From the IMG/VR virus record IMGVR_UViG_3300032246_001270: a stretch of DNA of 64,000 nt. One strand, 5' to 3'. The notes under the pieces were generated by a model, which was given only the letters and a program-made list of their open reading frames with translations, was not told where the DNA came from and made no database searches. The DNA is from a virus. Shown here one piece after another: positions 7,399 through 33,741 of this stretch. A program made the translations under genes and the position numbers. Positions within the stretch are counted from its first letter, which is position 1. Each line of letters starts with the position of its first letter.

Positions 7399-7842
7399 TT
7401 AAGGTTTCACCGGCCAATTTATATTAAATGGATTGTTTTGCGATGTAATATCTCTTAAAGATTGTCTATATACTGCCCAAGCTGTTTTTGTTTCATTAGA
7501 AATATCTGATAATTGTGTCCAATCACATTCAGTTAGTAATTGATTTCTTTGTATTCTAATTTCTTCCCATTGGTTTTCAATTCTATATAATATTTCAGTT
7601 TCAGTAGCATCAACTTGAATCCAATTTTGATAATATACTCCATCAATTAAATTAGGAGTACCTTCGGTAATATTTTTTGTATAATTGTATGGTTTTATAA
7701 TTGTAGATACCTCATACATTTCCCATTCTAATAAAACTTCATTAGTTAAATTTTCAGGAAAACTTATGTTTGGATACGATTCTCTTAATGTATTAATATC
7801 GTATGGATAGTGTATTGTATCATCTATAATTCTTAAGTACAT
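7399..7842 (-). CDS. Tail fibre assembly chaperone (Phage_tail_APC-like C-terminus)
   Basis: C-terminal WEEIRIQRNQLLTECDWTQLSD..W..YRQSLRDIT..WPVKP signature. Confidence 0.8.
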   Translation of the reverse strand: MYLRIIDDTIHYPYDINTLRESYPNISFPENLTNEVLLEWEMYEVSTIIKPYNYTKNITEGTPNLIDGVYYQNWIQVDATETEILYRIENQWEEIRIQRNQLLTECDWTQLSDISNETKTAWAVYRQSLRDITSQNNPFNINWPVKP

Positions 7843-14700: not shown

Positions 14701-17700
14701 TACAATTATAGAACCACTAATAGCAACACTACCAGTAAATCTAGAGCCAATTTCAGAACCAGTCTTAGAAGTTATTACTTTAAACCCTTCATCAGGATTT
14801 ACTGATGCGGTTACTGAACCTGATGTTATTTTATAAGGTGAGAATGATAATGCCGATTCAGGTATATTAAATAATCCTTCACCACTACCACTAAAATAAC
14901 CAGACCCAGAAGGTATAGTTACACTACCAGTTATTAAAATAGAACCAGTAAATACAGAACCACTATCTGCTGATAAAACTCTAAATCCATAATCAGGAGA
15001 TACAGATGCCGTTACTGAACCTGATTTAATTTCGGTTGATACTAATGCATCTTCAGTTAATGCTGAACGAGGTATTCTTCTTAAGTACGTTCCCTCAGCG
15101 TAAATAAATGATGATGAATCAATTTGAACACTACCACTAAATGCAGAACCACTCTCAAATGCTAATACTCTAAATCCATAATCAGGTGCTACAGATGCTG
15201 TAACACTACCACTAGCAATTAATGTTGCGGTTAAAGCAGGTATGTTTATTAATTTAGAACCATCGCCTATAAAGAATGATGCTGATATACTACCACTTAC
15301 AAAAATACTACCTGTAAATTGTGAGCCACTATCTGCTGATTGTACTCTAAATCCATAATCAGGTGTTACAGATGCGGTTACACTACCACTAGCTACTCTA
15401 AATACTTCTGATGATAAAGCTGAACGAGGTATATTAAATAATCCCTCACCACTACCAGTAAATGCTGAAGCCGATACAGTTGTATTTACTACAAATCCTT
15501 TATCAGGTGAAATTGATGCCGTTGCTGACCCACTAAATATTTTTGTTGAATCTATTGAAAGATTTGCTAAAGTTATATTTCTTAATTGAGAACCATCACC
15601 TACAAAATAAGAACCTGTTTCAGCGTAAACACTACCACTAACTCTTACACTACCACTTAAAGTTGAAAATGTATTTACTACAAATCCATAATCAGGTGTA
15701 ATTGATGCGGTAACTGAACCACTAGCAATTCTATTAATTTTAAATGATAATGCAGATTCAGGAATATCAGATAAACCGGCACCACTACCACTAAAATAAG
15801 AACCAGTAGCTACTCTAATATATCCACCTGTCACAAATAATGAACCTGTGAATTGCGAACCACTTACTACTGATATTACTTTAAATCCATAAGTAGGTGA
15901 TACTGATGCGGTAACTGAACCGGATAATATTTCAGTTGATGTAAGTGCATCCTGATTTAAAGCTGAACGAGGTATATCAGATAATCCTGCACCACTACCA
16001 CTAAAATATGAACCGCTTGCTACTCTAACATATCCACCAGTTACAAAAAGAGAACCAGTAAATTGAGAACCACTTGCTGCAGATTCTACTTTGAATCCAT
16101 AAGTAGGCGCTACCGATGCAGTTACAGAACCGGATGTTATTTTTGCGCTTTCAGCTGCTGGTACATTTGTTAATCTACTACCATCACCTACAAATCCATC
16201 AGCAATAACCGAACCCGTAACTTTTATTGAACCAGTAAATTGAGAACCACTAATAACTGATGTTACAACAAATCCATTAGTAGGACTAACTGATGCAGTT
16301 ACACTACCACTAGCTATTAATGTTGCCGTTAAAGCGGGAATATTAAATAATTTACTACCATCTCCTATAAAGAAAGATGCTGATACACTACCACTTACTT
16401 TTAAACTTCCAGTAAATTGTGAACCACTTAAACCAGATTCTACTTTAAATCCATAAACAGGACTAACAGATGCAGTTACACTACCACTTGCTATAAATGT
16501 AGATAATAATGCTTCATCATTTAAAGCTGAACGAGGTATATTTCTTAAATAAGTACCTTCACCATAATAAGCAGAAGATGATTCTAATACTAATGCTCCA
16601 CTTATTGCAGATACAGTTAAACTTCCAGATATTTTTACACTACCAGTTAATTCAGAACCACTAGTAGCGGATAAAACTTTAAATCCATAAACAGGACTAA
16701 CAGATGCAGTTACACTACCACTAGCTATTGCATATGTTATTTGAGGAGGTACGTTTAAATTTGTTAATCTACTACCATCACCTTGAAACGAACCACTAAA
16801 TGAACCACTAGCTTCTTTCAATAATACAGAGCCAGATAATACAGTTAAAGAACCACTAATACTAACACTACCACTAAATTGAGAACCACTTCCTAATGAT
16901 TCTACTTTAAATCCAAATTGTGGAGTTACAGATGCAGTTATACTTCCAGTTACTAATCTATATACTTCAGATGATAGTGCTGATTGTGGAATATCAAATA
17001 ATCCTCTACCAGAACCAGAATACATAGATGCCGTTACATTTCCAATTACAGAAGTTTCTCCTATAAGTTTAATTTGTGCCGGTTTATATAATGTAGTAAC
17101 TACATTAATTGTTCCAGCCATTGTGGAATGAAACTGACAATTATAATAAAGAACATCGGGTGCACTTTGAGGTACAGTAAATGTAATTACACCACTATCA
17201 ATACCATTATTAGTAATACCAGTACCATATGCATTTGAAGTACCAGTTGAACTTGAAGTTTTTATCCAAAATGGATGTCCTGTTGCATTTACATTAAATG
17301 TATATGTTAATCCTCTTACTAAAGTTAAATTTGCATTTGATTCATTATTAATAAGATAATATTGCGTAGCTATATTGCCTACATTGAATACCGTATTTAT
17401 TGAAGCTGTTGGTATTTCTATATTAGAAGAAGATACTATTAAACTACCACTTAAAGTTGAAAATGTATTTACTACAAATCCATTATCAGGCGCAATTGAT
17501 GCCGTTGCTGACCCACTAGCAATTCTATTAATTTTAAATGCCAAAGCAGATTCAGGAATATTAATCAATCCCTCACCACTACCACTAAAGAAAGATGCTC
17601 CAGATACTGCATTTATTACACCATAAAAATATGAACCGCTTTTTGATGTTACTACAAATCCATTATCAGGACTTACAGAAGCAGTTACACTACCACTAAA

Positions 17701-20732: not shown

Positions 20733-21656
20733 TTATTCATTTGCACTTTCTAACAAAGAAAGATTCACAGTTAAGTCAGTTGAGCCAGATACTATAAAAC
20801 CATATGTTTGTTCTAATACTAATTTACCAGCAACAACAGGAGATAATGAATCTGCAGGTGGTATGGTTGCGTTAGTTACCAATGCTATTGCATCTTGTGC
20901 AACAAGAATTGGAGATTCAATTGTAGCTTTAATAGTATCTATTAAAGAATTCACCACATATATAGAAGCTGAAATTCCAGCATTTGTTCCAGCATTAAAC
21001 CCTGTTAATACAGATTGAGTAACTCCACTTTGAAATAATATCGGAGAGTTGGCTGAACCTGTTGTTGATTGATTTTTTATAATTTGATTGGATAATGTTT
21101 TTAAATAATTTAGGGAAAATATAGATGCAGAATATTCCGCCGAATATGGTGTAAGTACGGATACACCATTTTTAGTAAAATATGCTTTTGCTGCTTTATT
21201 TGTTCTAATTGTTTTATTATTAGTAATATCATATTTTATTGCATCTACATTATTTAGTGTAGTAGTTTCAAAATATGATGATACAAAATCATATGGAGTT
21301 TCTGATAAACTATTTTGATATTGTGTGTAAGCTGCTATTTCTTTTCTTAAAAATTGTCTATTTGCATTAAGTAATAACGATGCACTAGCAAAACTACCAC
21401 TAAAATTTAATAAAGATACAGAAGAACTAATAAAAGAACTACCGCTATATATTGTACCAAATTGAGGTACAGGTATTTCTTTATTTGATGTTACTAAAAT
21501 TGTTACAGGTAAAGTTACTAAACTATTATTTGTAATTTGACAAGCCAATACAATTGAAGATACACCATTTGGTGTTGTATATATTTGGTCTTGCTCTCCA
21601 GTCAATCCAGTTATTACTGATTGAAATCGATTTAAAGGTACGAATACTTGTGCCAT
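20733..21656 (-). CDS. Beta-sandwich connector protein with one inserted helical domain
   Basis: N-terminus (IYTTP..SIVLACQITN) and C-terminus (LVTNATIP..GKLVLE..VNLSLLE) match 6696..7028; the middle resembles one repeat unit of the 4021-aa protein. Confidence 0.75.
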   Translation of the reverse strand: MAQVFVPLNRFQSVITGLTGEQDQIYTTPNGVSSIVLACQITNNSLVTLPVTILVTSNKEIPVPQFGTIYSGSSFISSSVSLLNFSGSFASASLLLNANRQFLRKEIAAYTQYQNSLSETPYDFVSSYFETTTLNNVDAIKYDITNNKTIRTNKAAKAYFTKNGVSVLTPYSAEYSASIFSLNYLKTLSNQIIKNQSTTGSANSPILFQSGVTQSVLTGFNAGTNAGISASIYVVNSLIDTIKATIESPILVAQDAIALVTNATIPPADSLSPVVAGKLVLEQTYGFIVSGSTDLTVNLSLLESANE

Positions 21657-21675: not shown

Positions 21676-24600
21676 TTATATTTGTAGTGCTAATGAGAAT
21701 GGAGTTACTAATGAGAATAGAGATTTACTAAATGTTCTACCTACAAGAGTACCAGTTGCTTGATTAATACTCAAACCAGTACCAATTCTAAAGTCACCAT
21801 CCTGATTACCTGATGTAAAGTATATTCTACCTCCTGCTAATTGAGTAATTTCGTATATTGGATTTGCAACACCACTACCACCCTGATTTGGAGGAAGTGC
21901 TTTGAACGTTACCCCACTACCATTATACGAATAGTCAATACCTGTTGCTACAATTAGAGAACCAAATGATACCAATGGTGCGCCAGCTGCTATAAATTCT
22001 GCTTTAGTTCTTAGATAACGATTTGTTTCCAAAGTTTCTAATTTTTGAGAAGAAATTACTGCTTGTGCACTTCCGTATTGTCCATCATAATATGAAGATG
22101 CTGCTGCAATACCTCTTTCATTTCCACCATATAATAAATCAGTAACACACGCATCTACAATAAATCCAGTATCACGTGAACAACTTGCTTCATTATATAC
22201 TAAATATGGAAATGCTCCATTTGTATATCCAATTGCTCTTTGTTTTAATTCATCTTTACTACCTTTTAATCTTTCAGCTGCTTGTCTTCTCTTAGTAGCC
22301 GGTGCTAAATAAGTTAATACAGTATTTGCTACTATTTTTTCAGATATTCCTCTTGCAAAGTTAATACCATCTAAAGTTTGCTTTTTCTGTCCATTATTAT
22401 CGCCATAACTATCCAAAATTGCTACTGATGGGAATTTGTAATAATAAGAACCTGCTTCAATACTTCTTTCATTACCACCATAAACTAAGTCGGTTCTAAT
22501 TGCATCTATAATAAATCCTAAATCTCTACTACAACTTACTTCATTATATTTTAAATTACTCCAAGAAGAACTTAAGAATGTTATTGTTTCTTTTTGTATT
22601 AGTTGTTTGTTATCTGTCAATAATTTTGCCGTTGTTAATAGAGATGCAGATGGTACTAAATAAATTGGGTTATTTATTATTTTTTTAGATAATTTTCCAG
22701 CATATCTAATACCAGTAAGAGTTGGGTCTAATTGATTTTGTGTTGATGGTACACCTTTATTAATTGCATTAGAAGGATATAAGTAATAATACTGTCCTGC
22801 TATCACAGTTCTTTCTTGTCCGCCATATAGTACATCTGTTGCTGCTGCATCTATCAAGTATCCAACATCTCTTTTACAAGTTGTTTGATTATAATATACA
22901 CCACTCCAAGAAGAAGATACATATGCAATAGTTTCTTCTGCTACAAATGCTTTATTTTTTCTTAATAAATCAAATGATGCCGATGCCTCTAATGATGCTG
23001 TTACAAATATAGTACCTCCTACAATTTTTTGTGCTATTCTACTTGCGTAGTTTATACCATCAATTGTTTGTCCTAATTGTCCAACACCATCACCATCTCC
23101 TAATAAGATTGCTTTAGATGGGTATTTGTAATAGAAGTCACCAGCTATTACACTTCTTTCATTTCCTCCGTATAATAAATCAGTAGTTGCTGCATCCAAT
23201 ATGTATCCTAAATCTCTAGCGCATTTTACTTTATTATATTCAAAATTACTCCAACTTGCAGTTAGGTAAGCCATACTTTCACTTACAATAAATGTTCTAT
23301 TATTTCTTAATAATGCTACGGATGATGAAACATCCAATGAAGCAGTATTGAATGAAAGATTTTGAACTAATTTAGTTGCTAAACCTTTTGCGTAATCAAT
23401 TGCTGTTATAGTTGGGTCTAATTGAGAACCAGTAACTTTTGATGGAACTTCCCAATATGAAATTCCAGCTAAAGAACTACTATGATTTCCACCATAAAGT
23501 ATATCACCAGCAACTGCTTCAACAATGTATCTAATATCTCTAGAACATACTGAGCTATCATATTCAAATCCACTCCAAGATGATGATAAGAATGCTATAC
23601 TCTCACTTTGAATAAATCCTATGTTTTTAGTTAATAAATCGTATGCAGCAATCTTTGATAAATTGTTTGATGGAGTTAAACCACTCGATTGAGATACAGG
23701 TGTAGGTATTAACCAATTGTTTATAGAAGCAGATACTAATCTACCTGCGTATTTAATTCCATCTATTGTTTCCGTTAATTGAATACCAGTAGCCTCCGAT
23801 GGATATAAGTAATAAAACTCTCCAGCTTTAGAACTTCTTTCATTTCCACCATATAGTAAATCAGTTGATACCGCATCTAAGATATATCCAACATCTCTCT
23901 TACAAGTTTCTTCATTGTAGTAGAAATCAGGGTATTTAGCGTTTATATAAGCAACACTCTCACTTTGGATAAACTTCTTATTATTTCTAATTGAATTATA
24001 AGAATTTATAGTAGAAGATGAAGTTACATAGAATTGTGCATTTTTAATTACATTTAATGCCAATCCTTTTGCGTATCTAACACCAGTTAAAGTTGGTTCT
24101 AATTGAGAATCGGTAGCTTGTGATGGATAATCATAATAATATCTACCAGCTACTACACTTCTTTCATTTCCACCATACAATAAATCCGTTCTTACTGCAT
24201 CTATAATGTATCCAATATCTCTAGCACATTTAATTTCATTATATCCAAACTCACTCCAAGAAGAACTTACATAAGCTATACTTTCACTTTGAATAAATGC
24301 CTTATTTTTAGTAAGTGCTTCAAACGATGCTGATATAGTAGCTGATGAAGATATATGGGTTAATAGGATGTTTTGTACAACATTTTCAGCCACACCACTT
24401 GCGTATTTTAATGCAGTTATAGTTTGGTCTAATTGTGAACCAGTAGCTTGAGATGGGAAATCAAAGTAGAACTTGCCATTAAACAAAGATGCTGAATTAC
24501 CGCCATATAAAAGGTCAAACGCAGAACCACTAAGAATTCCTACCAAATCTCTTTCACATTTACTTTGTGTATAATCAAATCCACTCCAAGAAGAACTCAT

Positions 24601-27600
24601 ATAAGCAATAGTTTCATCAACTATAAATTTAGAGTTGCTTACCAATAAATTATATGCCGAATTTATCTTTGCATTTGTATTTGCTATTGGATATGTTGAT
24701 GGTTTAAATGTAATAGAGCTTGTACCATTATTTAACAATACATCAATTACTAAAGATAAAGATGATGATATTAATTTACCCTGCAATCTTCCTCCTGCAC
24801 TTCCACTTATTAATTGTGATGTATTAGTTACTTTAATAGATGATGATACATTTGGTATAATTGTAGAAATCATACTAACCCCGTTTTCTACAATATCCAA
24901 AATAGTTCCAAAACCAGATGATACTTTATTTATTTCGAATTCTTCAGCAGTTTGTGTATTTACAATTGGTAATAATCCCGTCTTTGTAATTGAACCACTA
25001 GCATTTGTTACTAATTCAGGAATTGAACCAGTACCATTTGCAATTATATTAACTAAAGTTTCAAATGAAGAACTTGCAACATTTGTTTCAATTGGATAAG
25101 TCCCAGCTCCAATTGTTTGAGAATCAGAACTAATATTCCATAAGTTTGGATTATTTAAATTAAATCCATATAAAGATGAAAAATTAGAAACTAATGAATC
25201 AGGTAAAGATGAAGAATCATTTTTAATTATATCAGTAATTAAATTAAATGAAGAAGTAATTAAACCAATTTCAATTGTACTTGCCGCACTTGCTGATGTG
25301 ATTGGAGAAATATTATTTATTTTTATTCTACTTTCAACATTTGATATGATTGTTGGTTCTACACTAACTCCACCTTTAATAATTTTAGTCACAGTACTAA
25401 ATGATGAAGAAACATTTGTTATTTCGTTAGAACTTCCACTATTAGCAGATATAAATTGAGTTACATTAGATACTTTTATATTTCCATCAGTATTTGTAGT
25501 TAGTATTGGAGAATTTAATTTAATATTTTGAGCTATTGCTTTAGATAATGCTTTTGCATAATCAACACCAGCAACAGTTTCTCTAACTTGAGTACTCTTT
25601 GTTGCTAATGATGGATATAAATAATAGTATTGTCCAGCTATAATACTTCTTTGATTTCCACCATATAAAGTATCAGTTATAACTGCATCTAAGATATATC
25701 CAACATCACGTCTACATTTTTCTCTTAAGTAAACTAAGTTAGGGAAAAAGGCATCTATATATTGTACAGTTTCATTTTGTATAAACTTCTTATTCTGTCT
25801 TAATAAACTAACTGATGATGTTACAAATCCAGTTGGAGATATTAATACTTTATTTGCTACCACATTTTGTGCAGTACCAGCTACATAATTTATTCCATCA
25901 AGTGTAGGGCCTTTTTGTGTTGCTGCTGTTGGTGAAATAGAACCAGTCAAAATTGCTGCTGATGGGTATAGGTAATAGTATTCGCCTGCTTTAGAACTCC
26001 TCTCATTACCACCGTACAATAAATCCGTTCTTACTGCATCTATAATATATCCAATATCTCTCTTACAAGTTGTTTCATTATAATAAAATCCATCATCACC
26101 ACTCCAAGAAGAAGATAGATAAGCAATTGATTCACTTTGTATAAATTTCTTATTATCAATTAATAAATTAAATCCAGTTAATTCAGATGTTGTTGGTGAT
26201 TGTAATAATAAATTTTCTACAATTTTTTCAGTAATTCCTTTAGCGTATTTTATACCATCTAAAGTTTGATTTAATTGTCCACCAGTATCACCATCATTAC
26301 CTTCTGTTGCTAATGAAGGATATAAGTAATAATACTCCCCAGCTTTAGCTACTCTTTCGTTACCACCATAAAGAATATCAGTTGCTACTGCATCTAATAT
26401 ATAACCAATATCTCTTTTACAAGTAGTTTGGTTATATGGGAATGAACTCCAAGAAGAAGATAGATATGCAATAGTTTCATTTTGTATAAATCCTTTATTA
26501 TTGAATATTAATTCGTATGCAGTAACATTAGAATTTGATGCTGATACAAATATTAAATTCTTTAACACACTATCAGTTAAATCTTTTGCGTATTTAATTC
26601 CACTTAATGTAGGTCCCAATTGAGATGTTGTAGCTTGTGATGGATATTGATAGTAGAACTTTCCAGCATTTATACTTCTTTCATTACCACCATAAACTAT
26701 ATCAGTTGTTACTGCATCTAAGATATATCCAACATCTCTTTTACAAGTTGTTTGATTGTAAGATGCCGTACTCCAACTTGCCGAAATGTAACTTATAACT
26801 TCGTTTTGTATAAATTCTCTATTGTTATAAATTAATTCTTTTGCTTGTAATTTATTTTGCGATACTTTTGTAAATGTATTTCCTTTAAGAATTTTAAATG
26901 CAACATCTCTAGCATATTGGATACCAGTAACAGTCTCCTGTATTTGTGACCCCGTTGCTTCAGATGGATATAAATAATAGAATACTCCAGCATTTACACT
27001 TCTTTCGTTTCCACCATATAATAAATCGGTAGAAACTGCATCTATGATATGCCCAATATCTCTTTTACAAGTTGATTCAATATATTGGTGTGTACTCCAA
27101 GATGAACTTATATATGGTATTACTTCATTCTTAATAAACTCTTTGTTATTAACCAAAAGAGTATATGCATTTTTAATTTGTGCCGATTGCGTTACAAATT
27201 GAGTGTTTAATACTAATTTTTGTGCTAAACGTGATGCGTATTTAATACCATCTAATGTTTGGTTTAATTGTGCCCCTTGTGCTTGAGATGGAAATTCATA
27301 ATAAAATTTACCATTAAATACAGATGCTGAATTTGCATTAAATATTAAATCTTCTGCAGAACCACTAAGTATAAATTTCAAATCACGCTTACACTTATTT
27401 TCATCATAAGATGCTGTTGACCAAGACGAACTCAAATATGCAATACTTTCCGATACTATGAAATCTAAGTTATTTTTTAAAATAGTATAAGCTGCTATTA
27501 TATTTGAAGATGATATTGATGATGTATATAAAGTTACAATTGGTAAAGAATCAATACCATTTGCTATTATATTTGTTACAATAGAAATAGATGCTGATAT

Positions 27601-30600
27601 TGCGTTAGCTTCGGTTTGTGTTGCTGGCGTTCCTCCTAAATATTGAGTAGCATTAGTTACTTTAATATTATTTACATTTGAAGTAATAGTAGGTAATGAA
27701 CCAGTACCATTTTCTAATATGTTTATAATTTTATCAAAACTTCCAGATATATTTCTTGCTAATGAAGATGATATAATTACCGAAGATGTAAATTGATTTG
27801 TATTTGTTATCTTTACTAATGAATTGGTATTTTTTACTAATGTAGGCAAAGAACCAGTACCATTTTCAACAATATCCAAAACAATATCAAAACTATTATT
27901 TGAAGCTGTCAGATATGTTAATGCTATTGATGCAGTTGTTAAATATCTATTTGTTGCAGTTCTTCTAATTAAAGAATTTACATTTGTTACAATAGTTGGT
28001 AATGAACCTGTACCATTTGCTACAATATCAATTACCGTATTAAATCCAGTACTTACTTTTATTATTTCGGAAATAGTAGGAGTTATTGATGATGTTATTT
28101 GTTCACCACCTAAAACATTTACACCTTTATTTGTATTCTTAACAATATTTGTTGGTATTGAACCAGTTCCATTTGATAAGATATTAAGTATGTTACCAAA
28201 TGAAGATGATACAATATATTTATCATTTGTTTCTACATATATAGATGATGTAATTTGCTGAGCCGTAGTTACTTTAATTCCTGCTTCAGTATTTAATACT
28301 ACATTAGGTGCTGAATTACTTCCACTTTCAATTACTTTGGATACAATATTAAAACCATCTTCTATTGATTTTCCACCAATTGCTACCAATTTTGCTAAAC
28401 CTTTTGTAAAGTTTAGTGAATCAATTGTTTCTTTGGATTGAACTCCAGTAGCTTGAGATGGGTATAAATAATAGAATCTTCCAGCAGTTATACTTCTTTC
28501 ATTTCCACCATAAACCAAATCTGTAATTATAGCATCTACAATAAATCCAGTATCTCTATAACACTTACTTTGGATATATTGTAAATTAGGATATGTTTCA
28601 TTTGCATAATCAAGAGTATTTTGTTGTAAGAATACTCTATTAGTTTTTAATAAACTTGCAACGTTTAATACTTCAGTAGATGGTGCAGATAATACAATAT
28701 TTTTAATTATATTTTGTACTACTTGATTTGCGTAATTTACTCCAGTTATAGTTGGGTCTAATTGTTGTGTTACGGAAGGTACTCCACCTACAATTGCTGC
28801 CGATGGGTATCTATAATAATATTCTCCAGCAAATCTAGTTCTTTCGTTACCACCATAAACCAAGTCAGTTCTAACCGCATCTAATATATATTTTGTATCT
28901 CTTAAACACTTAGCCTGATTGTATTCTGCTTCACTCCAAGAAGAACTTACATAAGCTACAACTTCATTTGCAATTAGGTTTTTGTTTCTTAATATTAAAT
29001 TACTTGCATTTACTTTATTTCCATCAGCTGAAACGAATACTGAACCAGTAACAATCTTTTGTATCATTCTACTTGCGTAGTTGATACCATCTAAAGTTGG
29101 AAGTAATTGTGAACCAGTTGCTTGAGATGGATATAGATAATAAAATATACCAGCGTTTCTACTTCTTTCATTTCCACCATAAACTAAGTCAGTTCTAATT
29201 GCATCTATAATATACCCAACATCTCTTTTACAAGTTGATTCAATATATGCCTGCTCACTCCAAGAAGAACTTAAATAAGCGATTGTTTCATCCTGTATGA
29301 ATACTTTGTTGTTTATTAATAAAGATGCCGCATTTAGGATATTAACCGATGCTGTGTTGAATTGTACATTTTGAATTACCTTTTGTGCTAAACGTGATGC
29401 GTAGTTGATACCATCTAATGTTTGTTGAAGTTGAGCTCCTTGCGCTTGTGATGGAAATTCCCAATAGAATAAACCATTAAATACAGATGCGGAATTTGCG
29501 TTCCATATTAAGTCTTCCGCAGAACCACTCAATATAAATCCTAAATCACGTCTACATTTAGTTTCATCGTAAATAAATCCAGCCCAAGAAGAACTTAGAT
29601 ATGCAATAGTTTCATTTTGAATAAATGGAATATTGTTTTTGAGAATTTCGTAAGCTGCTACACTATTAGATGATGTTACTCTATTTGTATATGTTTGGAA
29701 AGCAGGTGCTGAAAACTCACCACCTTCAATTATGTTTGTTACTATTGATATTGATGATGATATAAAGTTTACATTATTTGCACTTGCCGAATAAGATGAA
29801 GAAATATATTGTGATGTATTTGTTACTTTAATACTTGCACTTACGTTTGATGTAAGAGTAGGTACAAAAGATAACCCACCTTCTAATATATCGGTGATTA
29901 CTTTTATTGAAGAACTTAATTGTGTACTTTGAGTATTTGTTCCATAATAACTAGAACCAGTTATGTATTGTGGTGTGTTAGTTACTTTTACATTTGAGTT
30001 TAGATTTGATACCAATGTACCCAATGAACCAGTACCATTTGTTATTATAGTTGCTACATATGCAATTGATGCTGATATCAAATTATCAACTGAACCACTA
30101 ACTGCTAATGAAGCTGTTATTTGTGGTGTTCCAGTTACAGCTATTGCATTTGCTTGAGATGCGGTAAATAAAGGTTCTGCTACTACACCACCACCAATAA
30201 TAGTATTTACAATATCAAAATTTCTACCAATTGTATTTACTTCATTTGATGTTGTATTGGATGAAGTTATTTGAGAATCATTAGTTACACTTAATGCATT
30301 ATATTTGTTCCAATTTAATCCAGTATTTTTAGCTAATAAATATTTAATTGAACTCAATCCTTTTGCTACAATTCCTTCTATAATTGAGAATGAATTGCCA
30401 ATAGAAGTTTGTTGAGTTATTGAACCACTAAATGAAGATGTTATATTTGATAAAGATGATGCTCTAAAATTTCTCTCATCATTATAAACAATACGTGGTG
30501 TATCTAATATTTGATTTTGAACAATAGTATCTCCAATAATTTTTGCATATTTAACACCAGCAATAGTTGATGTTCTTTGAGTTGTAGTTGCTAAAGATGG

Positions 30601-33600
30601 AAAATCATAATAGTATCTACCAGCGGTTACACCTCTTTCAATTCCACCATATAATAAATCCGTTGCTACATTATCAACAATATATCCAACATCTCTTTTA
30701 CAAGTTGCTTGATTATATTTTAAATTTGGAAATGCAACATTAATAAATTGAATTGTTTCGTTTTGAATTAATTCTTTATTTTTTATTAAATTATTATATG
30801 CTGATAATGTTGATACATCAGGGGTTGTAAATGTTTTTTGTTTTAATAAATTATCAACTAACCCACTAGCATATCTAATACCGTCTGTTGTTTGTCCTAA
30901 TTGCCCAACACCATCACCATCTCCTCTTACAATTGCTAAAGATGGGTATTGATAATAATATTGACCGGCAGTTATACTTCTTTCATTTCCACCATATTTT
31001 GTATCAGTTGCTACTGCATCTAATATATATCCGGTATCACGTCTACACTTTGCTTCATTATAATAAAAATTAGACCAAGATGATGATAAATAAGTTATTA
31101 CCTCATTTTGTATAAATGTTTTATTATCTCTAATAGTAGTCCAAACATCATATACTTCAGTTGTTGGTTCTACATAAATGTTACCTCTAATTAAATTTAA
31201 TGAAACTCCAGCTGCATGTTTCATAGCAGTTAATGTTGGTCCTAATTGTGTTGTAGTTGCCTGAGATGGGTATTGATAATAAAATAAACCATTTCTAATA
31301 CTTTCCTCATTTCCACCATACAACAAATCTTTTGCTACACCATCTATAATATAGCCAACATCTCTTTTACAAGTTTCTTCTGGATATGAAAACCCACTCC
31401 AAGATGATGATACAAATTGTATTACTTCATCTTTAATAAATTCTTTATTATTTACTAATATTTCGTATGCTGTTACAATATCAATATTTGTTTTAGCAAC
31501 CGAACCACTTTGTATTATAGCTGGGTATGTTAATGTATTTTTAATTAAATCAAATGGAGTTGTAGATGAATTTACTATTTCAATCTTACCACCCATTGAG
31601 CTTTTGTTTTGAGATACATAATATAATTTGTTTGGTGCATTATATGGTACAGTAAAAGTTATTGTTCCTCTACTATCTCCATTATTTACAACACCAATAT
31701 TATAATCATATGTATCAGTAATACCTTCTAATTGTTGAGTTCTTATCCAAAATGGATATTCAATTCCACCGGATTTTTCTACGGCACTTACGTTAAATTT
31801 GTAAGTCTGTCCTCTAAATAAAGTTAATGTAGGATTACTACCAATTCCATCAAAATCAAATGAAGAACTATTGTTATTTGTTATTACAAAAGATTTTTGA
31901 TGATTAACAGGTATTGGTAAAATATTACTTCCAGTACCATTTGCTAAAATATTATAAACAATACTAAAACTTGCACTTATTGAATTTATTGTTTCTAAAG
32001 ATGATGTTACACCTAACATTATTTGTTCAGTATTTCCTGCTTTAATACTAGCGCTTGTATTTGCTATATAAGTTGGTTTAATAGAAATACCTTTTGAGAT
32101 AATATTAATTATTGTACCAAACGATGAACTGACTGATGCAGTGTAGTTTGTTGCAATATTTGCTATTGGTTCAATTACATCATTACCAATTTGTTTACTA
32201 GCACTTGTATTAGATTTAAAATTAAATGAACCAGTACCATTTCCTAATATACTTAAAATAGCTGCATAAGATGAACTAATAGTATTTAAATCATATTGAG
32301 TAGCTGATATAGATGATGTTATTTGTTCTGCTCCTAAAATATTATATGGAGAATCAAATCCATATCCTTTTATCGAACTTTTTGCTAATAGGGTTGGAAA
32401 ATTAGTTACACCCTTATCAACAATTTCACTTATTAATCTATAATCAGCTGATATTTCATCTGCTGCAGTTGTTGATAATTCTGTACCAGCTGATACTATA
32501 CTTTGTGTATATAATGCAGGTGATGATAATCGAATACCTTCTGCTGTATTTAATTTTGTTATTGTTGGTAATCCTTTTTCTAATCCTTTATTTAATACAT
32601 CAACAACACAACCCCAAGTTGCTCTTACCGAATCTCTTGCAGCTATATTACCACCACTACCAGAAATAAAACGAGAACCAGACGCATACATACCATACAA
32701 ACCAAACGAAATATTTGAGTTGTTTAGCGTAGCGTGTCCACCATTATTTACTCTAATTGCATAATATGAGAAGTTATTAAAAAAAGATACCAGCTGAATG
32801 AATCCTCTACCATTAACTAAACATCCCACACCATTTGGAGAAATTTGCGTATAAGCATCCAATACCATTGAAGCCAATGGAGAATCTGGGTCTATCACAT
32901 CACCATTAACATAAAGACCACCACCACCTGGCGGAATTTCTTCATAAAGTTCCGTAAATGAATTCTCTTGATTGGAAATCTGCGAGCAGTTCTGAACGTA
33001 TGGAGATGTTGTAATAAATGCACCAGGTTGGAAGGCCACAGCAAAACCTCTTTCAGGATTTACTTGGTCTGGATATAATCTCAAGCCCCCCATTGTCACT
33101 TCCGCAATATAACATCCAGAGTTTACTAAAAATAAATCATATGTAGGGTTTTTAGCGTTAATTTTGGTAATACGCAAACCAGCACCCCAAATGGTTGTAT
33201 TCTTAGGAAGTATCACAGGATTATCTTCTAAATAGGTTCCCGCTTGAACTTTAATTACATATCCATTGTATATTGAACCGGTATCAAAACCATATCTACC
33301 ATCATAGCCAGGTGTTGATAATGCAGCTGCTCTTTTAATTGTACGAAGCGGATACTGAATACTTCTACCATCGTTATTATCATTACCATCAGTAGAAGAT
33401 ACATAAAGTGTTGGTAAATTAGCACCAAAGTCTTTTGCAAGAATATCAGCATATCTTTGTGTATTTACTGCATTTAATGTATTTGAAGATGTTACAGAAA
33501 GAATTGTATTTGGTGCTGCAGTTTTTAATATACCATCAATGGTCAAAGAACCCGTAAGAAATATTGAGCCGGTTATTTCGTTAAAAGAGCCCGTATTAGT

Positions 33601-33741
33601 TCCTAAGAAAAAACTCTTAGATACAAAAAGAGAACCACTAATAATGGCATCATTACCTATAATAACATTTTGTCCAATAGTAAGTGAACCAGTTATATTT
33701 TGTTGTTCTTCAATTTGTTTACGAGGTATTAATCTTGCCAT
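21676..33741 (-). CDS. Giant virion structural protein (4021 aa): pectate-lyase-like beta-helix N-part, 21 CxRD helical repeats, 21 single-helix repeats, conserved C-terminal part
   Basis: LYVSSTDGNDNNDG..PLRTIKRA, SPYVQNCS, SMVLDAYTQ and C-terminal GGRIYFTSGNQDGDFRIG..INQATGT..GRTFSKSLF resemble large T4-like cyanophage structural proteins; repeats counted from the translation. Confidence 0.85.
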   Translation of the reverse strand: MARLIPRKQIEEQQNITGSLTIGQNVIIGNDAIISGSLFVSKSFFLGTNTGSFNEITGSIFLTGSLTIDGILKTAAPNTILSVTSSNTLNAVNTQRYADILAKDFGANLPTLYVSSTDGNDNNDGRSIQYPLRTIKRAAALSTPGYDGRYGFDTGSIYNGYVIKVQAGTYLEDNPVILPKNTTIWGAGLRITKINAKNPTYDLFLVNSGCYIAEVTMGGLRLYPDQVNPERGFAVAFQPGAFITTSPYVQNCSQISNQENSFTELYEEIPPGGGGLYVNGDVIDPDSPLASMVLDAYTQISPNGVGCLVNGRGFIQLVSFFNNFSYYAIRVNNGGHATLNNSNISFGLYGMYASGSRFISGSGGNIAARDSVRATWGCVVDVLNKGLEKGLPTITKLNTAEGIRLSSPALYTQSIVSAGTELSTTAADEISADYRLISEIVDKGVTNFPTLLAKSSIKGYGFDSPYNILGAEQITSSISATQYDLNTISSSYAAILSILGNGTGSFNFKSNTSASKQIGNDVIEPIANIATNYTASVSSSFGTIINIISKGISIKPTYIANTSASIKAGNTEQIMLGVTSSLETINSISASFSIVYNILANGTGSNILPIPVNHQKSFVITNNNSSSFDFDGIGSNPTLTLFRGQTYKFNVSAVEKSGGIEYPFWIRTQQLEGITDTYDYNIGVVNNGDSRGTITFTVPYNAPNKLYYVSQNKSSMGGKIEIVNSSTTPFDLIKNTLTYPAIIQSGSVAKTNIDIVTAYEILVNNKEFIKDEVIQFVSSSWSGFSYPEETCKRDVGYIIDGVAKDLLYGGNEESIRNGLFYYQYPSQATTTQLGPTLTAMKHAAGVSLNLIRGNIYVEPTTEVYDVWTTIRDNKTFIQNEVITYLSSSWSNFYYNEAKCRRDTGYILDAVATDTKYGGNERSITAGQYYYQYPSLAIVRGDGDGVGQLGQTTDGIRYASGLVDNLLKQKTFTTPDVSTLSAYNNLIKNKELIQNETIQFINVAFPNLKYNQATCKRDVGYIVDNVATDLLYGGIERGVTAGRYYYDFPSLATTTQRTSTIAGVKYAKIIGDTIVQNQILDTPRIVYNDERNFRASSLSNITSSFSGSITQQTSIGNSFSIIEGIVAKGLSSIKYLLAKNTGLNWNKYNALSVTNDSQITSSNTTSNEVNTIGRNFDIVNTIIGGGVVAEPLFTASQANAIAVTGTPQITASLAVSGSVDNLISASIAYVATIITNGTGSLGTLVSNLNSNVKVTNTPQYITGSSYYGTNTQSTQLSSSIKVITDILEGGLSFVPTLTSNVSASIKVTNTSQYISSSYSASANNVNFISSSISIVTNIIEGGEFSAPAFQTYTNRVTSSNSVAAYEILKNNIPFIQNETIAYLSSSWAGFIYDETKCRRDLGFILSGSAEDLIWNANSASVFNGLFYWEFPSQAQGAQLQQTLDGINYASRLAQKVIQNVQFNTASVNILNAASLLINNKVFIQDETIAYLSSSWSEQAYIESTCKRDVGYIIDAIRTDLVYGGNERSRNAGIFYYLYPSQATGSQLLPTLDGINYASRMIQKIVTGSVFVSADGNKVNASNLILRNKNLIANEVVAYVSSSWSEAEYNQAKCLRDTKYILDAVRTDLVYGGNERTRFAGEYYYRYPSAAIVGGVPSVTQQLDPTITGVNYANQVVQNIIKNIVLSAPSTEVLNVASLLKTNRVFLQQNTLDYANETYPNLQYIQSKCYRDTGFIVDAIITDLVYGGNERSITAGRFYYLYPSQATGVQSKETIDSLNFTKGLAKLVAIGGKSIEDGFNIVSKVIESGSNSAPNVVLNTEAGIKVTTAQQITSSIYVETNDKYIVSSSFGNILNILSNGTGSIPTNIVKNTNKGVNVLGGEQITSSITPTISEIIKVSTGFNTVIDIVANGTGSLPTIVTNVNSLIRRTATNRYLTTASIALTYLTASNNSFDIVLDIVENGTGSLPTLVKNTNSLVKITNTNQFTSSVIISSSLARNISGSFDKIINILENGTGSLPTITSNVNNIKVTNATQYLGGTPATQTEANAISASISIVTNIIANGIDSLPIVTLYTSSISSSNIIAAYTILKNNLDFIVSESIAYLSSSWSTASYDENKCKRDLKFILSGSAEDLIFNANSASVFNGKFYYEFPSQAQGAQLNQTLDGIKYASRLAQKLVLNTQFVTQSAQIKNAYTLLVNNKEFIKNEVIPYISSSWSTHQYIESTCKRDIGHIIDAVSTDLLYGGNERSVNAGVFYYLYPSEATGSQIQETVTGIQYARDVAFKILKGNTFTKVSQNKLQAKELIYNNREFIQNEVISYISASWSTASYNQTTCKRDVGYILDAVTTDIVYGGNERSINAGKFYYQYPSQATTSQLGPTLSGIKYAKDLTDSVLKNLIFVSASNSNVTAYELIFNNKGFIQNETIAYLSSSWSSFPYNQTTCKRDIGYILDAVATDILYGGNERVAKAGEYYYLYPSLATEGNDGDTGGQLNQTLDGIKYAKGITEKIVENLLLQSPTTSELTGFNLLIDNKKFIQSESIAYLSSSWSGDDGFYYNETTCKRDIGYIIDAVRTDLLYGGNERSSKAGEYYYLYPSAAILTGSISPTAATQKGPTLDGINYVAGTAQNVVANKVLISPTGFVTSSVSLLRQNKKFIQNETVQYIDAFFPNLVYLREKCRRDVGYILDAVITDTLYGGNQRSIIAGQYYYLYPSLATKSTQVRETVAGVDYAKALSKAIAQNIKLNSPILTTNTDGNIKVSNVTQFISANSGSSNEITNVSSSFSTVTKIIKGGVSVEPTIISNVESRIKINNISPITSASAASTIEIGLITSSFNLITDIIKNDSSSLPDSLVSNFSSLYGFNLNNPNLWNISSDSQTIGAGTYPIETNVASSSFETLVNIIANGTGSIPELVTNASGSITKTGLLPIVNTQTAEEFEINKVSSGFGTILDIVENGVSMISTIIPNVSSSIKVTNTSQLISGSAGGRLQGKLISSSLSLVIDVLLNNGTSSITFKPSTYPIANTNAKINSAYNLLVSNSKFIVDETIAYMSSSWSGFDYTQSKCERDLVGILSGSAFDLLYGGNSASLFNGKFYFDFPSQATGSQLDQTITALKYASGVAENVVQNILLTHISSSATISASFEALTKNKAFIQSESIAYVSSSWSEFGYNEIKCARDIGYIIDAVRTDLLYGGNERSVVAGRYYYDYPSQATDSQLEPTLTGVRYAKGLALNVIKNAQFYVTSSSTINSYNSIRNNKKFIQSESVAYINAKYPDFYYNEETCKRDVGYILDAVSTDLLYGGNERSSKAGEFYYLYPSEATGIQLTETIDGIKYAGRLVSASINNWLIPTPVSQSSGLTPSNNLSKIAAYDLLTKNIGFIQSESIAFLSSSWSGFEYDSSVCSRDIRYIVEAVAGDILYGGNHSSSLAGISYWEVPSKVTGSQLDPTITAIDYAKGLATKLVQNLSFNTASLDVSSSVALLRNNRTFIVSESMAYLTASWSNFEYNKVKCARDLGYILDAATTDLLYGGNERSVIAGDFYYKYPSKAILLGDGDGVGQLGQTIDGINYASRIAQKIVGGTIFVTASLEASASFDLLRKNKAFVAEETIAYVSSSWSGVYYNQTTCKRDVGYLIDAAATDVLYGGQERTVIAGQYYYLYPSNAINKGVPSTQNQLDPTLTGIRYAGKLSKKIINNPIYLVPSASLLTTAKLLTDNKQLIQKETITFLSSSWSNLKYNEVSCSRDLGFIIDAIRTDLVYGGNERSIEAGSYYYKFPSVAILDSYGDNNGQKKQTLDGINFARGISEKIVANTVLTYLAPATKRRQAAERLKGSKDELKQRAIGYTNGAFPYLVYNEASCSRDTGFIVDACVTDLLYGGNERGIAAASSYYDGQYGSAQAVISSQKLETLETNRYLRTKAEFIAAGAPLVSFGSLIVATGIDYSYNGSGVTFKALPPNQGGSGVANPIYEITQLAGGRIYFTSGNQDGDFRIGTGLSINQATGTLVGRTFSKSLFSLVTPFSLALQI

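What the first reader, a model, noticed from the sequence alone, without database searches (positions are those of the whole stretch)
21985..32640. A protein written in balanced brackets: 21 single helices and 21 helical cores that nest into a branched tree
Seen: the repeat region has two repeat types. H is a ~45-50-aa unit with one amphipathic helix (ISSSFxxIxxIxxNG). C is a ~95-aa core (AYxLLxxNKxFIQxE..CxRD..YGGNERS..YYxYPS..TxxGIxYA). Their order is H5-C3-H5-C4-H6-C6-H5-C8, giving 21 H and 21 C. Scoring H as an opening and C as a closing bracket gives running totals 5,2,7,3,9,3,8,0: never negative, ending at zero. Subtypes fit this nesting. Cores with the (F/Y)PxL/F variant instead of SSSWS are C3, C7, C13, C16 and C21, and they would close H3, H7, H11, H19 and H1. 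H3, H7 and H19 are each preceded by an unusual aromatic linker (GYGFDSPYNI, GLNWNKYNAL, YGFNLNNPNLW), and H1 and H11 are both followed by LNTxxGI(K/R). The ILSGSAxDL core variant occurs only at turn-around points (C4, C8, C14). A cupredoxin-like domain sits at the first turn-around, between H5 and C1. The adjacent 307-aa gene has one core followed by one helix, consistent with 1:1 stoichiometry. Inference: each domain is one outgoing helix plus one returning core. The chain would then form a 5-domain trunk with arms of 3, 4, 6 and 3 domains, rooted where the N-terminal beta-helix and C-terminal part rejoin. I do not know of a description of this dendritic architecture, but cannot check the literature.
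Basis: partly seen in the sequence, partly recalled or inferred. Interest (0 to 1): 0.92.

Follow-up and report, generated by a model that had tools for sequence, protein, structure and literature searches.

The report
Branched phage protein of split domains
A 4,021-residue phage virion protein appears to fold back on itself repeatedly, so that each of its 21 phycobiliprotein-like domains is built from one helix laid down on the way out and one core on the way back, giving a branched tree; I found no description of such an architecture.

Summary
ORF 21676-33741 (minus strand) holds exactly 21 H units and 21 C cores in the order H5-C3-H5-C4-H6-C6-H5-C8, with the stated subtype pattern. The nested-pairing interpretation is largely supported by independent lines.

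1. Of 106 full-length homologues, 93 are exactly bracket-balanced, across 14 distinct architectures from 15/15 to 28/28. A 1,086-aa positional orthologue is 4/4.
2. Three non-contiguous copy-number changes hit mirror positions in the H run and the C run.
3. AlphaFold2 models of H17-H21+C14-C18 and of the 4/4 orthologue are confident over the repeats. Structural alignments to phycobiliproteins and globins span non-contiguous pieces in the predicted register (H17|C18, H20|C15, H19|C16; H2|C3, H1|C4).
4. Residue covariation is highest for the nested register and marks two antiparallel helix faces.

The module is globin/phycobiliprotein-like. The N-terminus is tailspike-like.

Not shown: direct contacts (no coordinates available), trunk closure in this protein itself, a cupredoxin fold for the tip domain, and function.

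Other first-stage readers noted this same stretch.

Likely role: a branched virion fibre that displays binding domains.

The parts
21676..33741 (-). Whole gene, 4021 aa (P0001): giant virion-type structural protein
   Evidence: ORF list and translation. PHROG hits phrog_4527 and phrog_5342, annotated tail fibre (E 1e-181 and 1e-166).
32668..33741 (-). N-terminal domain, aa 1-358: probable right-handed parallel beta-helix, tailspike-like; the root of the tree
   Evidence: In the orthologue model, residues 98-348 match the Pam1 tailspike (Z 8.8), CBA120 TSP3 (Z 8.6) and pectate lyases, but pLDDT is low there. Weak PF12708 match, E 0.012.
31873..32667 (-). H run 1: H1-H2 (trunk), aromatic linker, H3-H5 (outgoing strand of arm 1)
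31471..31872 (-). 134-aa non-repeat domain at the tip of arm 1 (between H5 and C1); fold not identified
   Evidence: Gap of 133-145 aa at this place in nearly all homologues. No significant Pfam or PDB match.
30490..31470 (-). C run 1: C1-C3, returning strand of arm 1; C3 is the F/Y-P base variant
29680..30444 (-). H run 2: H6 (trunk), aromatic linker, H7-H10 (arm 2 outgoing)
28369..29655 (-). C run 2: C4-C7 (arm 2 returning); C4 is the tip variant, C7 the base variant
27514..28383 (-). H run 3: H11-H16 (arm 3 outgoing)
   Evidence: This arm is lost, shortened, lengthened or sub-branched in homologues.
25507..27492 (-). C run 3: C8-C13 (arm 3 returning); C8 is the tip variant, C13 the base variant
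24661..25452 (-). H run 4: H17-H18 (trunk), aromatic linker, H19-H21 (arm 4 outgoing)
   Evidence: AF2 helices at model residues 12-35, 63-82, 124-143, 175-194 and 226-244; low pLDDT at 88-107.
23701..24657 (-). C14-C16 (arm 4 returning); C14 is the tip variant, C16 the base variant
21970..23646 (-). C17-C21: returning strand of the trunk, predicted partners of H18, H17, H6, H2 and H1
   Evidence: C17 and C18 pair with H18 and H17 in the model. C19-C21 pairing is inferred from bracket balance, the orthologue model and co-divergence.
21679..21969 (-). C-terminal 97-aa tail, highly conserved, fold unknown
   Evidence: A tail of 97-100 aa is present in essentially all homologues. Low pLDDT in the orthologue model.
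20733..21656 (-). Adjacent 307-aa gene (P0002) with one Cys-less C-core-like segment (about aa 95-200)
   Evidence: C-profile hit E 2.5e-5. A gene of 286-287 aa follows the orthologous genes in L039 and L045.

Best explanation
The protein is one polypeptide that folds as a set of antiparallel hairpin rods joined into a tree.

**Module.** On the way out, each module receives one H unit: a helix of about 20-24 residues, a short turn helix and a short beta-strand. On the way back it receives one C core: five helices and a short beta-strand. An H unit plus its bracket-matched C core form one globin/phycobiliprotein-like domain. The H helix packs antiparallel on the last helix of the core. The two short strands pair as a rung between successive modules.

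**Tree.** Bracket matching gives:
- trunk modules H1|C21 and H2|C20;
- arm 1 (three modules, with a 134-aa extra domain at its tip);
- trunk module H6|C19;
- arm 2 (four modules) and arm 3 (six modules);
- trunk modules H17|C18 and H18|C17;
- a flexible hinge, then arm 4 (three modules).

Both chain ends meet at the root: the N-terminal tailspike-like beta-helix and the conserved 97-aa C-terminal tail.

**Role (inferred).** The gene follows the gp13-like and gp15-like neck and tail-completion genes, and its relatives are annotated as tail fibre or virion structural proteins. I therefore infer a virion-attached branched fibre. Its arms serve as spacers and display extra binding domains at tips and branch points. 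Arm number and length evolve in whole H+C modules.

**Shown:** the unit counts, subtypes, co-variation of counts, mirrored indels, and covariation.
**Predicted:** the pairing register and the fold.
**Inferred:** virion location, adhesion role, and whole-tree geometry.
For: 1. **Counts and order**.

2. **Comparative balance.** With raw HMM calls, most homologues are balanced. The '+1' cases are 18-aa partial hits. The '-1' cases have a 46-65-aa unassigned gap where an H should be. After correcting for these, 93 of 106 full-length proteins are balanced and never negative, in 14 distinct architectures (15/15, 16/16, 17/17, 21/21 in two forms, 22/22, 23/23 in two forms, 24/24, 25/25, 26/26, 27/27, 28/28 in two forms). 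The positional orthologue P0215 has the same gene neighbourhood and is N-domain+4H+4C+tail, with a tip-type C1 and a base-type C4.

3. **Mirrored indels in arm 3**.
   - The 5/5 proteins lack a unit near the C-terminal end of the H run and near the N-terminal end of the C run (tip/tip).
   - P0090 (7/7) gains at tip/tip.
   - P0116 and P0118 gain at the N-terminal end of the H run and the C-terminal end of the C run (base/base).

4. **AF2 model of aa 2760-3585**: pLDDT 79.4, pTM 0.64.
   - Low confidence falls exactly at the aromatic linker after H18 and at the long C16/C17 linker.
   - Beta-bridges occur after H17, H19 and H20 and after C14, C15 and C17, and none at the H18/H19 or C16/C17 junctions.

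5. **VIA-align on that model**.
   - Phycoerythrin 5aqd_M: Z 9.9, 120 residues aligned over model 39..824 (H17 tail + C18).
   - 7eyd_19 and 1b8d_A: model 201/203..478 (H20 tail + C15).
   - Colicin A: model 98..583 (H19 + C16).

6. **AF2 of P0215**: the repeat region has pLDDT 80-92. VIA gives seven phycobiliprotein chains over 434-439..873-878 (H2 tail + C3), globin 4uiq_A over 382..991 and colicin N over 379..989 (H1 tail + C4), and 4zva over 537..651 (H4 tail + C1).

7. **Residue covariation (MI-APC)** on 1225 pairs. The top-20 sum is 2.55 for the nested register, 1.76 and 1.37 for a shift of +1 and -1, 1.18 and 1.08 for a shift of +2 and -2, and 0.93 for sequential pairing. The top couplings link H columns 12/15/16/20/23 to C columns 95/94/91/87/84/80.

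8. **Unit co-divergence**: mean residual r is 0.318 for nested pairs against -0.026 for all H-C pairs. None of 20000 permutations reached this. Trunk pairs rank 2, 1, 2, 3 and 2 of 22.

9. **Context**: gp15-like PF16724 and gp13-like genes upstream, a tail assembly chaperone downstream. An F5/8 type C domain sits at the branch after H18 in P0065 (E 4.8e-13).
Against: - No coordinates, contact map or PAE could be read. Pairings are deduced from the first and last aligned residues of structural alignments and from DSSP strings.
- VIA Z scores (about 10) are below the level (about 13) at which helical matches are safe on their own.
- Thirteen of 106 homologues remain off by 1-2 units after correction, and the correction rules were set after seeing the data.
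- Co-divergence of trunk units could also arise if arms are exchanged as cassettes by recombination.
- Strict leave-orthologue-out paralogue matching recovers partners only moderately: mean rank 6.8 against 11 expected, with 9 of 21 at rank 3 or better. It fails for H1, H2, H6 and H18.
- The per-unit conservation level shows no partner correlation among close homologues (r 0.14).
- The N-domain and the tail are low-confidence in the orthologue model, so root closure beyond H1|C4 is not shown.
- Virion location rests on annotation of relatives only.
Confidence: 0.78

Rival explanations
1. Beads on a string. The C cores are autonomous tandem globin-like domains and the H runs are separate fibrous or linker segments. 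Equal numbers arise because blocks are duplicated together. The first and last core variants are simply N- and C-caps of tandem arrays.
For: The core alone aligns with allophycocyanin over 110 residues without any H segment (8or7_A, model 255..367). Tip and base variants coincide with the first and last core of each run. Many copy-number changes are contiguous H_nC_n cassettes, which keep the balance automatically.
Against: The non-contiguous 5/5 and 7/7 changes at mirror positions need two coordinated events. The internal C16/C17 boundary is mirrored by the H18/H19 aromatic linker. Structural alignments join H tails to distant cores. Covariation depends on register. A pTM of 0.64 for 826 residues is not expected of independent beads.
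Confidence: 0.07
2. Same H:C pairing, but between chains. In an oligomeric fibre (for example a trimer, as for tailspikes), the H run of one subunit complements the C run of a neighbour (arm-level domain swapping). The rods would then be intermolecular and the tree would not be a single-chain fold.
For: The N-terminal domain resembles trimeric tailspike beta-helices. The N-domain and tail are poorly predicted as monomers. Count balance, mirrored indels and covariation are all equally satisfied by swapped pairing of the same arm.
Against: Short tip connections (H21 to C14, H10 to C4 and H16 to C8 are separated by only a few residues) favour closing the hairpin within a chain. The AF2 monomer closes them with high confidence. 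A global antiparallel dimer is impossible, because it would pair C with C in the reversed order.
Confidence: 0.12
3. The nested register is an artefact of prediction and counting. H units do bind cores, but in a shifted, parallel or variable register. AF2 merely packs amphipathic helices on the nearest groove.
For: No contact map could be inspected. The hairpin-centred paralogous rows were chosen by me. Strict paralogue matching is weak for several pairs.
Against: The covariation score falls monotonically with register shift and is lowest for sequential pairing. Mirrored indels contradict a parallel register. Two independent models, built from different proteins and MSAs, give the same register.
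Confidence: 0.03

Closest known systems
Phycobiliproteins and other bilin-binding globin-like domains (Pfam PF00502; allophycocyanin, phycoerythrin, ApcE bilin-binding domain, photocobilin)
   Same: These are the best structural matches of the module in two independent models (Z 9.4-10.1, 12-21% identity for the phycobiliproteins). Weak sequence matches centre on the chromophore cysteine: the core's C-x-R-D aligns with Cys84-Ala-Arg-Asp of R-phycocyanin alpha. PF00502 gives E 5.6e-4. Cys, Arg and Asp are invariant in all 21 cores.
   Different: The PF00502 score is below Pfam's cut-off (20.4 against 22.2 bits). The domains are fused in one 4,021-aa chain rather than forming alpha/beta ring assemblies. 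Part of the domain comes from a distant segment of the chain. The protein is encoded by a phage structural module. No evidence of a bound bilin.
Flagellin and hook-type nested hairpin domains (D0-D1-D2-D3); T4 sheath gp18 nested insertions; SMC/Rad50 and colicin Ia antiparallel coiled-coil arms (from my own knowledge, not tested here)
   Same: The chain runs outward and returns. Proximal domains or rods are built from N- and C-terminal segments that are far apart in sequence. Both ends lie at the root, and distal parts are the variable ones.
   Different: Those proteins have one hairpin with three or four unlike domains, or a plain coiled coil. Here there are 21-28 homologous modules, each split in the same way. 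Several hairpins branch from one another. Copy number evolves in matched H+C pairs. No sequence relationship was found.
Giant 'short tail fiber / tail protein / virion structural protein' genes of T4-like cyanophages (PHROGs 4527, 5342, 701, 18802; e.g. S-RSM4 SRSM4_214, S-PM2 GC:830 protein)
   Same: They share the C core and the general gene class. Cyanomyoviruses lack T4 gp10-12, gp34-37 and wac homologues. Unassigned virion proteins were proposed to replace them (PMC2984593).
   Different: In the distant ~1,640-2,000-aa metagenomic family that carries PF00502 and PF18454 hits, units alternate strictly as (C-H)n, 8/8 or 10/10. In the S-RSM4 giant, seven cores are spaced by about 65 aa, which is compatible with the same tandem order, although H was not detected. 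A tandem order gives a linear rod with contiguous modules. The window protein uses the same two pieces in nested order. No paper describing either arrangement was found.

Membership tests
Phycobiliprotein / phycobilisome protein family (PF00502) | Sequence match to the family profile at or above the curated threshold | tested here: not met
   P0001 scores 20.4 bits against a cut-off of 22.2, E 5.6e-4. Several homologues carry precomputed PF00502 hits. The C-core profile against PDB gives only E 0.46 to R-phycocyanin.
Phycobiliprotein / phycobilisome protein family (PF00502) | Globin-like helical fold superimposable on phycobiliproteins | tested here: met
   The top VIA-align hits in two models are phycobiliproteins and bilin-binding globins: Z 9.4-10.1, rmsd 2.2-3.1 A, 97-120 residues aligned. 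Caveat: Z below 13 is not decisive for helical domains, and these are predicted models.
Phycobiliprotein / phycobilisome protein family (PF00502) | Chromophore-attachment Cys with following Arg and Asp on the central helix (Cys84-x-Arg86-Asp87) | tested here: met
   C34, R36 and D37 are invariant in all 21 cores and align with KCARD of phycocyanin alpha residues 83-87.
Phycobiliprotein / phycobilisome protein family (PF00502) | Covalently bound bilin; assembly into alpha/beta monomers and rings | not testable with these tools
   Needs spectroscopy or a zinc blot of the virion or expressed protein. A ring assembly is implausible for a fused chain.
Nested-hairpin multidomain proteins of the flagellin type (topological class, not a sequence family) | Domains formed from N-side and C-side segments in nested order, with chain termini together | tested here: met
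   Bracket balance in 93 of 106 homologues, mirrored indels and model ranges. All of this is computational.
Nested-hairpin multidomain proteins of the flagellin type (topological class, not a sequence family) | Sequence homology to flagellin or hook proteins | tested here: not met
   No flagellin family among the Pfam hits.
Phage tail fibre / short tail fibre (as named in PHROGs and GenBank) | Membership of PHROG families annotated as tail fibre | tested here: met
   phrog_4527 E 3.7e-181 and phrog_5342 E 2.4e-166. These names are annotations, not tested functions.
Phage tail fibre / short tail fibre (as named in PHROGs and GenBank) | Presence in the virion at the baseplate or neck; receptor binding | not testable with these tools
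   Only the gene context is available: gp13-like and gp15-like genes upstream, a fibre chaperone downstream.
Tailspike-type parallel beta-helix (N-terminal domain) | Right-handed parallel beta-helix fold | tested here: inconclusive
   VIA Z 8.8 (Pam1 tailspike), Z 8.6 (CBA120 TSP3) and many pectate lyases, all on a low-pLDDT part of the orthologue model. PF12708 gives E 0.012, below the cut-off.

The most novel reading that the evidence does not exclude
The tree is not only a scaffold. Each of the 21 split phycobiliprotein-like modules would keep the Cys-x-Arg-Asp site because it carries a bilin. The virion appendage would then be a pigmented, light-absorbing or light-sensing dendritic array. 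This might connect with the bilin-synthesis and CpeT-like genes that cyanophages carry. In S-RSM4 a cpeT-like gene lies about 1 kb upstream of the giant homologue.
Probability: 0.1. Interest if true: 0.97.

Novelty: categorically new. Interest (0 to 1): 0.86.

Why it matters
Known repeat proteins stack contiguous units. Known nested-domain proteins have one hairpin with a few unlike domains.

Here, a single chain seems to use one split module recursively, like stems and multi-branch loops in RNA secondary structure. It builds rods and branches whose length and number evolve in matched pairs.

If confirmed, three things follow.
- It is a new design principle for long, rigid, branched proteins whose two termini sit together.
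- It gives a way to read three-dimensional shape from a bracket string in thousands of metagenomic phage genes.
- It gives an unexpected second life to the phycobiliprotein fold, on a virus particle.

It also gives a concrete structural hypothesis for the giant, uncharacterised 'tail fibre' genes of marine and freshwater T4-like phages. The 1,086-aa 4/4 orthologue is a tractable experimental entry point.

Tried and rejected
- **Foldseek against PDB** with the whole 826-residue model: no match at E <= 0.001, only all-helical noise.
- **ESM Atlas look-up**: no usable hit.
- **The genome search 'own'**: no genome is held for this window.
- **Unit-by-unit orthology mapping of H units** across divergent homologues was too noisy to place indels. 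It was replaced by run-level alignments.
- **Partner correlation of per-unit conservation** among ~90%-identical homologues: no signal (r 0.14, permutation p 0.42).
- **Paralogue matching.** A first version gave 10 of 21 partners at rank 1. I reject it as leaky, because orthologues of the test pair remained in training. The strict version is much weaker: 3 of 21 at rank 1, 9 of 21 at rank 3 or better, and the trunk base not recovered.
- **P0198 (six cores, no H)** looked like a counter-example. It is a C-terminal fragment after a frame break at a contig edge. The upstream frame carries cores, an H unit and a beta-repeat insertion.
- **Tip domain**: 'cupredoxin-like' could not be supported by Pfam or by PDB sequence search.
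- **Literature**: searches for this family, phycobiliprotein-like phage proteins or nested repeat architectures found nothing relevant.
- **Megablast of flanking DNA** against phage records: no match.

Full report
**1. What is there**

The finding lies inside one open reading frame, window 21676..33741 on the minus strand, encoding 4,021 residues. The window is a phage structural module:
- large terminase, portal and major head protein;
- a gp13-like neck protein and a gp15-like tail-sheath stabiliser just upstream of the gene;
- collagen-like fibre genes;
- a second giant gene (3,967 aa);
- a tail-fibre assembly chaperone downstream.

The protein matches PHROG families annotated as tail fibre or virion structural protein (phrog_4527 E 3.7e-181, phrog_5342 E 2.4e-166). 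Its relatives among cultured phages are giant proteins of T4-like cyanophages, all below 40% identity. No near-identical phage record exists.

**2.

The motif C-x-R-D occurs exactly 21 times, grouped 3|4|6|8. The 21 cores align over about 105 residues with invariant Tyr, Cys, Arg, Asp, Asp and Tyr positions.

Four intervening regions contain 5, 5, 6 and 5 copies of a ~50-residue unit with one amphipathic helix. Profile HMMs give H5-C3-H5-C4-H6-C6-H5-C8.

The subtype claims are correct.
- The F/Y-P variant is found in C3, C7, C13, C16 and C21.
- The ILSGSAxDL variant is found in C4, C8 and C14.
- Aromatic linkers follow H2, H6 and H18.
- LNTxxGI(R/K) follows H1 and H11.

These linkers cut the H runs into (2|3), (1|4), (6) and (2|3). 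The long linker after C16 cuts the last C run into 3+5. The pieces therefore match as 3-3, 4-4, 6-6, 3-3 and 5-5.

**3.

A database search returned 120 homologues of 3,065-5,154 residues.

With raw HMM calls most were already balanced.
- The '+1' cases proved to be 18-residue partial hits.
- The '-1' cases had an unassigned 46-65-residue gap where an H is expected.

I then applied two rules, which I set after seeing the data. With them, 93 of 106 full-length proteins are exactly balanced with a never-negative running total, in 14 different architectures from 15/15 to 28/28.

Changes seen among the homologues include:
- loss of arm 3 or arm 2 as a whole;
- arm 3 as 5/5 or 7/7;
- a four-module hairpin inserted into the returning strand of arm 3;
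- one to three extra modules at the hinge between C16 and C17.

The positional orthologue in a related phage has the same flanking genes. It has only 1,086 residues: N-domain, four H, four C, and the tail. Its first core is of the tip type and its last of the base type.

An apparent counter-example with six cores and no H is a gene fragment behind a frame break at a contig edge.

**4. Register**

Contiguous H_nC_n cassettes keep the balance trivially. The informative events are therefore the non-contiguous ones.

Run-level alignments of arm 3 show three of them.
- The 5/5 proteins lack a unit near the C-terminal end of the H run and near the N-terminal end of the C run.
- One 7/7 protein gains at those same ends.
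- Two others gain at the N-terminal end of the H run and the C-terminal end of the C run.

This mirror symmetry is what an antiparallel (nested) register predicts. It is the opposite of a parallel one.

**5. Structure prediction**

*First model.* AF2 on residues 2760-3585 (H17-H21 + C14-C18) used 34 orthologous segments and 13 hairpin-centred paralogous rows. It gave mean pLDDT 79.4 and pTM 0.64.

The only long low-confidence stretches are the aromatic linker after H18 and the C16/C17 linker. These are the predicted branch point.

DSSP beta-bridges occur after H17, H19 and H20 and after C14, C15 and C17. This is the pattern expected if short strands form rungs between successive modules of a ladder that is interrupted at the hinge.

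However, the VIA-align search reports the first and last aligned model residue.
- Phycoerythrin (Z 9.9, 120 residues aligned) spans model 39..824, which is the H17 tail plus C18.
- ApcE and phycoerythrin alpha span 201/203..478, which is the H20 tail plus C15.
- Colicin A spans 98..583, which is H19 plus C16.

A compact domain alignment with an rmsd of about 3 A can only span such ranges if the distant pieces sit together.

*Second model.* The whole 4/4 orthologue gave pLDDT 80-92 over the repeats but low confidence for the N-domain and tail. It shows the same pattern.
- Seven phycobiliprotein chains span 434-439..873-878 (H2 tail + C3).
- A globin and colicin N span about 380..990 (H1 tail + C4).
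- A sensor globin spans 537..651 (H4 tail + C1).

So the hairpin closes down to the first H and the last core.

**6. Covariation**

I used 1,225 bracket-matched H/C pairs from 57 balanced proteins and computed MI with APC correction. The inter-unit score is highest for the nested register (top-20 sum 2.55). It falls with register shift (1.76 and 1.37 for +1 and -1; 1.18 and 1.08 for +2 and -2) and is lowest for sequential pairing (0.93).

The top couplings connect H columns 12, 15, 16, 20 and 23 with core columns 95, 94, 91, 87, 84 and 80. These are one face of the H helix and one face of the last core helix, running antiparallel.

A unit-level co-divergence test was run on 22 proteins of identical architecture. 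It gives a mean residual correlation of 0.318 for nested pairs against -0.026 for all H-C pairs. None of 20,000 permutations reached this value. The long-range trunk pairs rank 1-3 of 22. Cassette recombination could contribute to this signal.

A paralogue-matching test looked spectacular at first but was leaky. With orthologues strictly removed it is only moderately better than chance, and it fails for the trunk base.

**7. What the module is**

Both models point to the phycobiliprotein/globin-like fold. This agrees with weak sequence matches centred on the chromophore cysteine and with precomputed PF00502 hits on homologues.

Membership of PF00502 is not established, because the score is below the cut-off. 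The resemblance is at fold-plus-motif level.

The same two pieces occur in other arrangements.
- A distant ~1,640-2,000-residue family alternates strictly (C-H)n, with 8/8 or 10/10.
- A ~1,070-1,320-residue family reads C-HHH-CC (3/3) or C-HHHH-CCC (4/4).

The 1:1 stoichiometry is therefore general, and nesting is one way of wiring it.

The S-RSM4 'short tail fiber' giant has seven cores spaced by about 65 residues.

**8. Function**

Function is inferred only. The evidence is:
- the gene's position after the neck and tail-completion genes;
- the tailspike-like N-terminal beta-helix (low confidence);
- the extreme conservation of H1-H2 and C20-C21 (88-93% identity even where the rest is ~60%);
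- extra domains at tips and branch points, namely the 134-residue domain at the tip of arm 1, an F5/8 type C domain after H18 in P0065, and ~430-residue beta-repeat insertions.

These fit a virion-anchored branched fibre whose conserved root attaches to the particle and whose variable arms present binding modules. Cyanomyoviruses lack T4 gp10-12, gp34-37 and wac homologues. Unassigned virion proteins were proposed as replacements (PMC2984593).

**9. Limits**

- All structural statements are predictions read indirectly.
- Oligomeric, arm-swapped pairing cannot be excluded.
- The trunk pairing H1/H2/H6 with C21/C20/C19 in this protein rests on balance, the orthologue model and co-divergence.
- The tip domain's 'cupredoxin' label and the helix in the 307-aa neighbour are unconfirmed.

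Other first-stage notes on this same stretch had flagged the phycobiliprotein-like C-x-R-D cores and the 3/4/6/8 block grammar. My tests agree with both.

**10. Verdict**

I found no description of such an architecture in the literature searched. The nearest analogues are flagellin-type nested hairpins and antiparallel coiled-coil arms, both named from my own knowledge. They share the out-and-back principle but not the recursive, branched use of one split module.

Noticed in passing
L043:1511-2035 (S-RSM4, NC_013085.1 176523-177047): In cyanophage S-RSM4 a CpeT-like (bilin-lyase family) gene lies about 1 kb upstream of the giant 'short tail fiber' gene that carries the same C-x-R-D cores. The two are separated only by tRNA genes and an HNH endonuclease.
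   Followed up: no
proteins P0208, P0229, P0233, P0256, P0266 (metagenomic, 1650-2000 aa): A distant family with PF18454 (Mtd_N) and PF00502 hits uses the same core and helix in strictly alternating C-H order, 8/8 or 10/10. This implies a linear rod with the termini at opposite ends. A further family reads C-HHH-CC or C-HHHH-CCC.
   Followed up: partly
homologues P0010, P0012, P0019, P0024, P0026, P0080; L045:3-4245: Beta-rich repeat insertions of about 408-433 aa (motif SFxFTC...SYPR) sit inside H runs or between a single H and its core. In L045 the gene is interrupted by a frame break inside this insertion, at a contig edge.
   Followed up: partly
window 4001-6000 and 10001-12000: Two islands of about 50% G+C in an otherwise ~30% G+C window lie inside the other giant ORFs (1..6684 and 8761..20664, minus strand).
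   Followed up: no
window 7399-7842 (-): A 147-aa protein with a phage tail assembly chaperone domain (PF16778, E 6e-17) lies downstream of the 3,967-aa and 301-aa genes, as expected for a fibre plus chaperone pair.
   Followed up: no
loci L004-L038 (IMG/VR contigs): A large share of contigs carrying this gene begin or end inside it. The internal repeats therefore seem to break assemblies, and many database 'proteins' of this family are fragments.
   Followed up: partly
window 21952-22638 and 32332-32679 (-): The root parts (H1-H2 and C20-C21) are 88-93% identical in homologues whose arms are only ~55-60% identical. Conservation is therefore concentrated at the two chain ends.
   Followed up: partly
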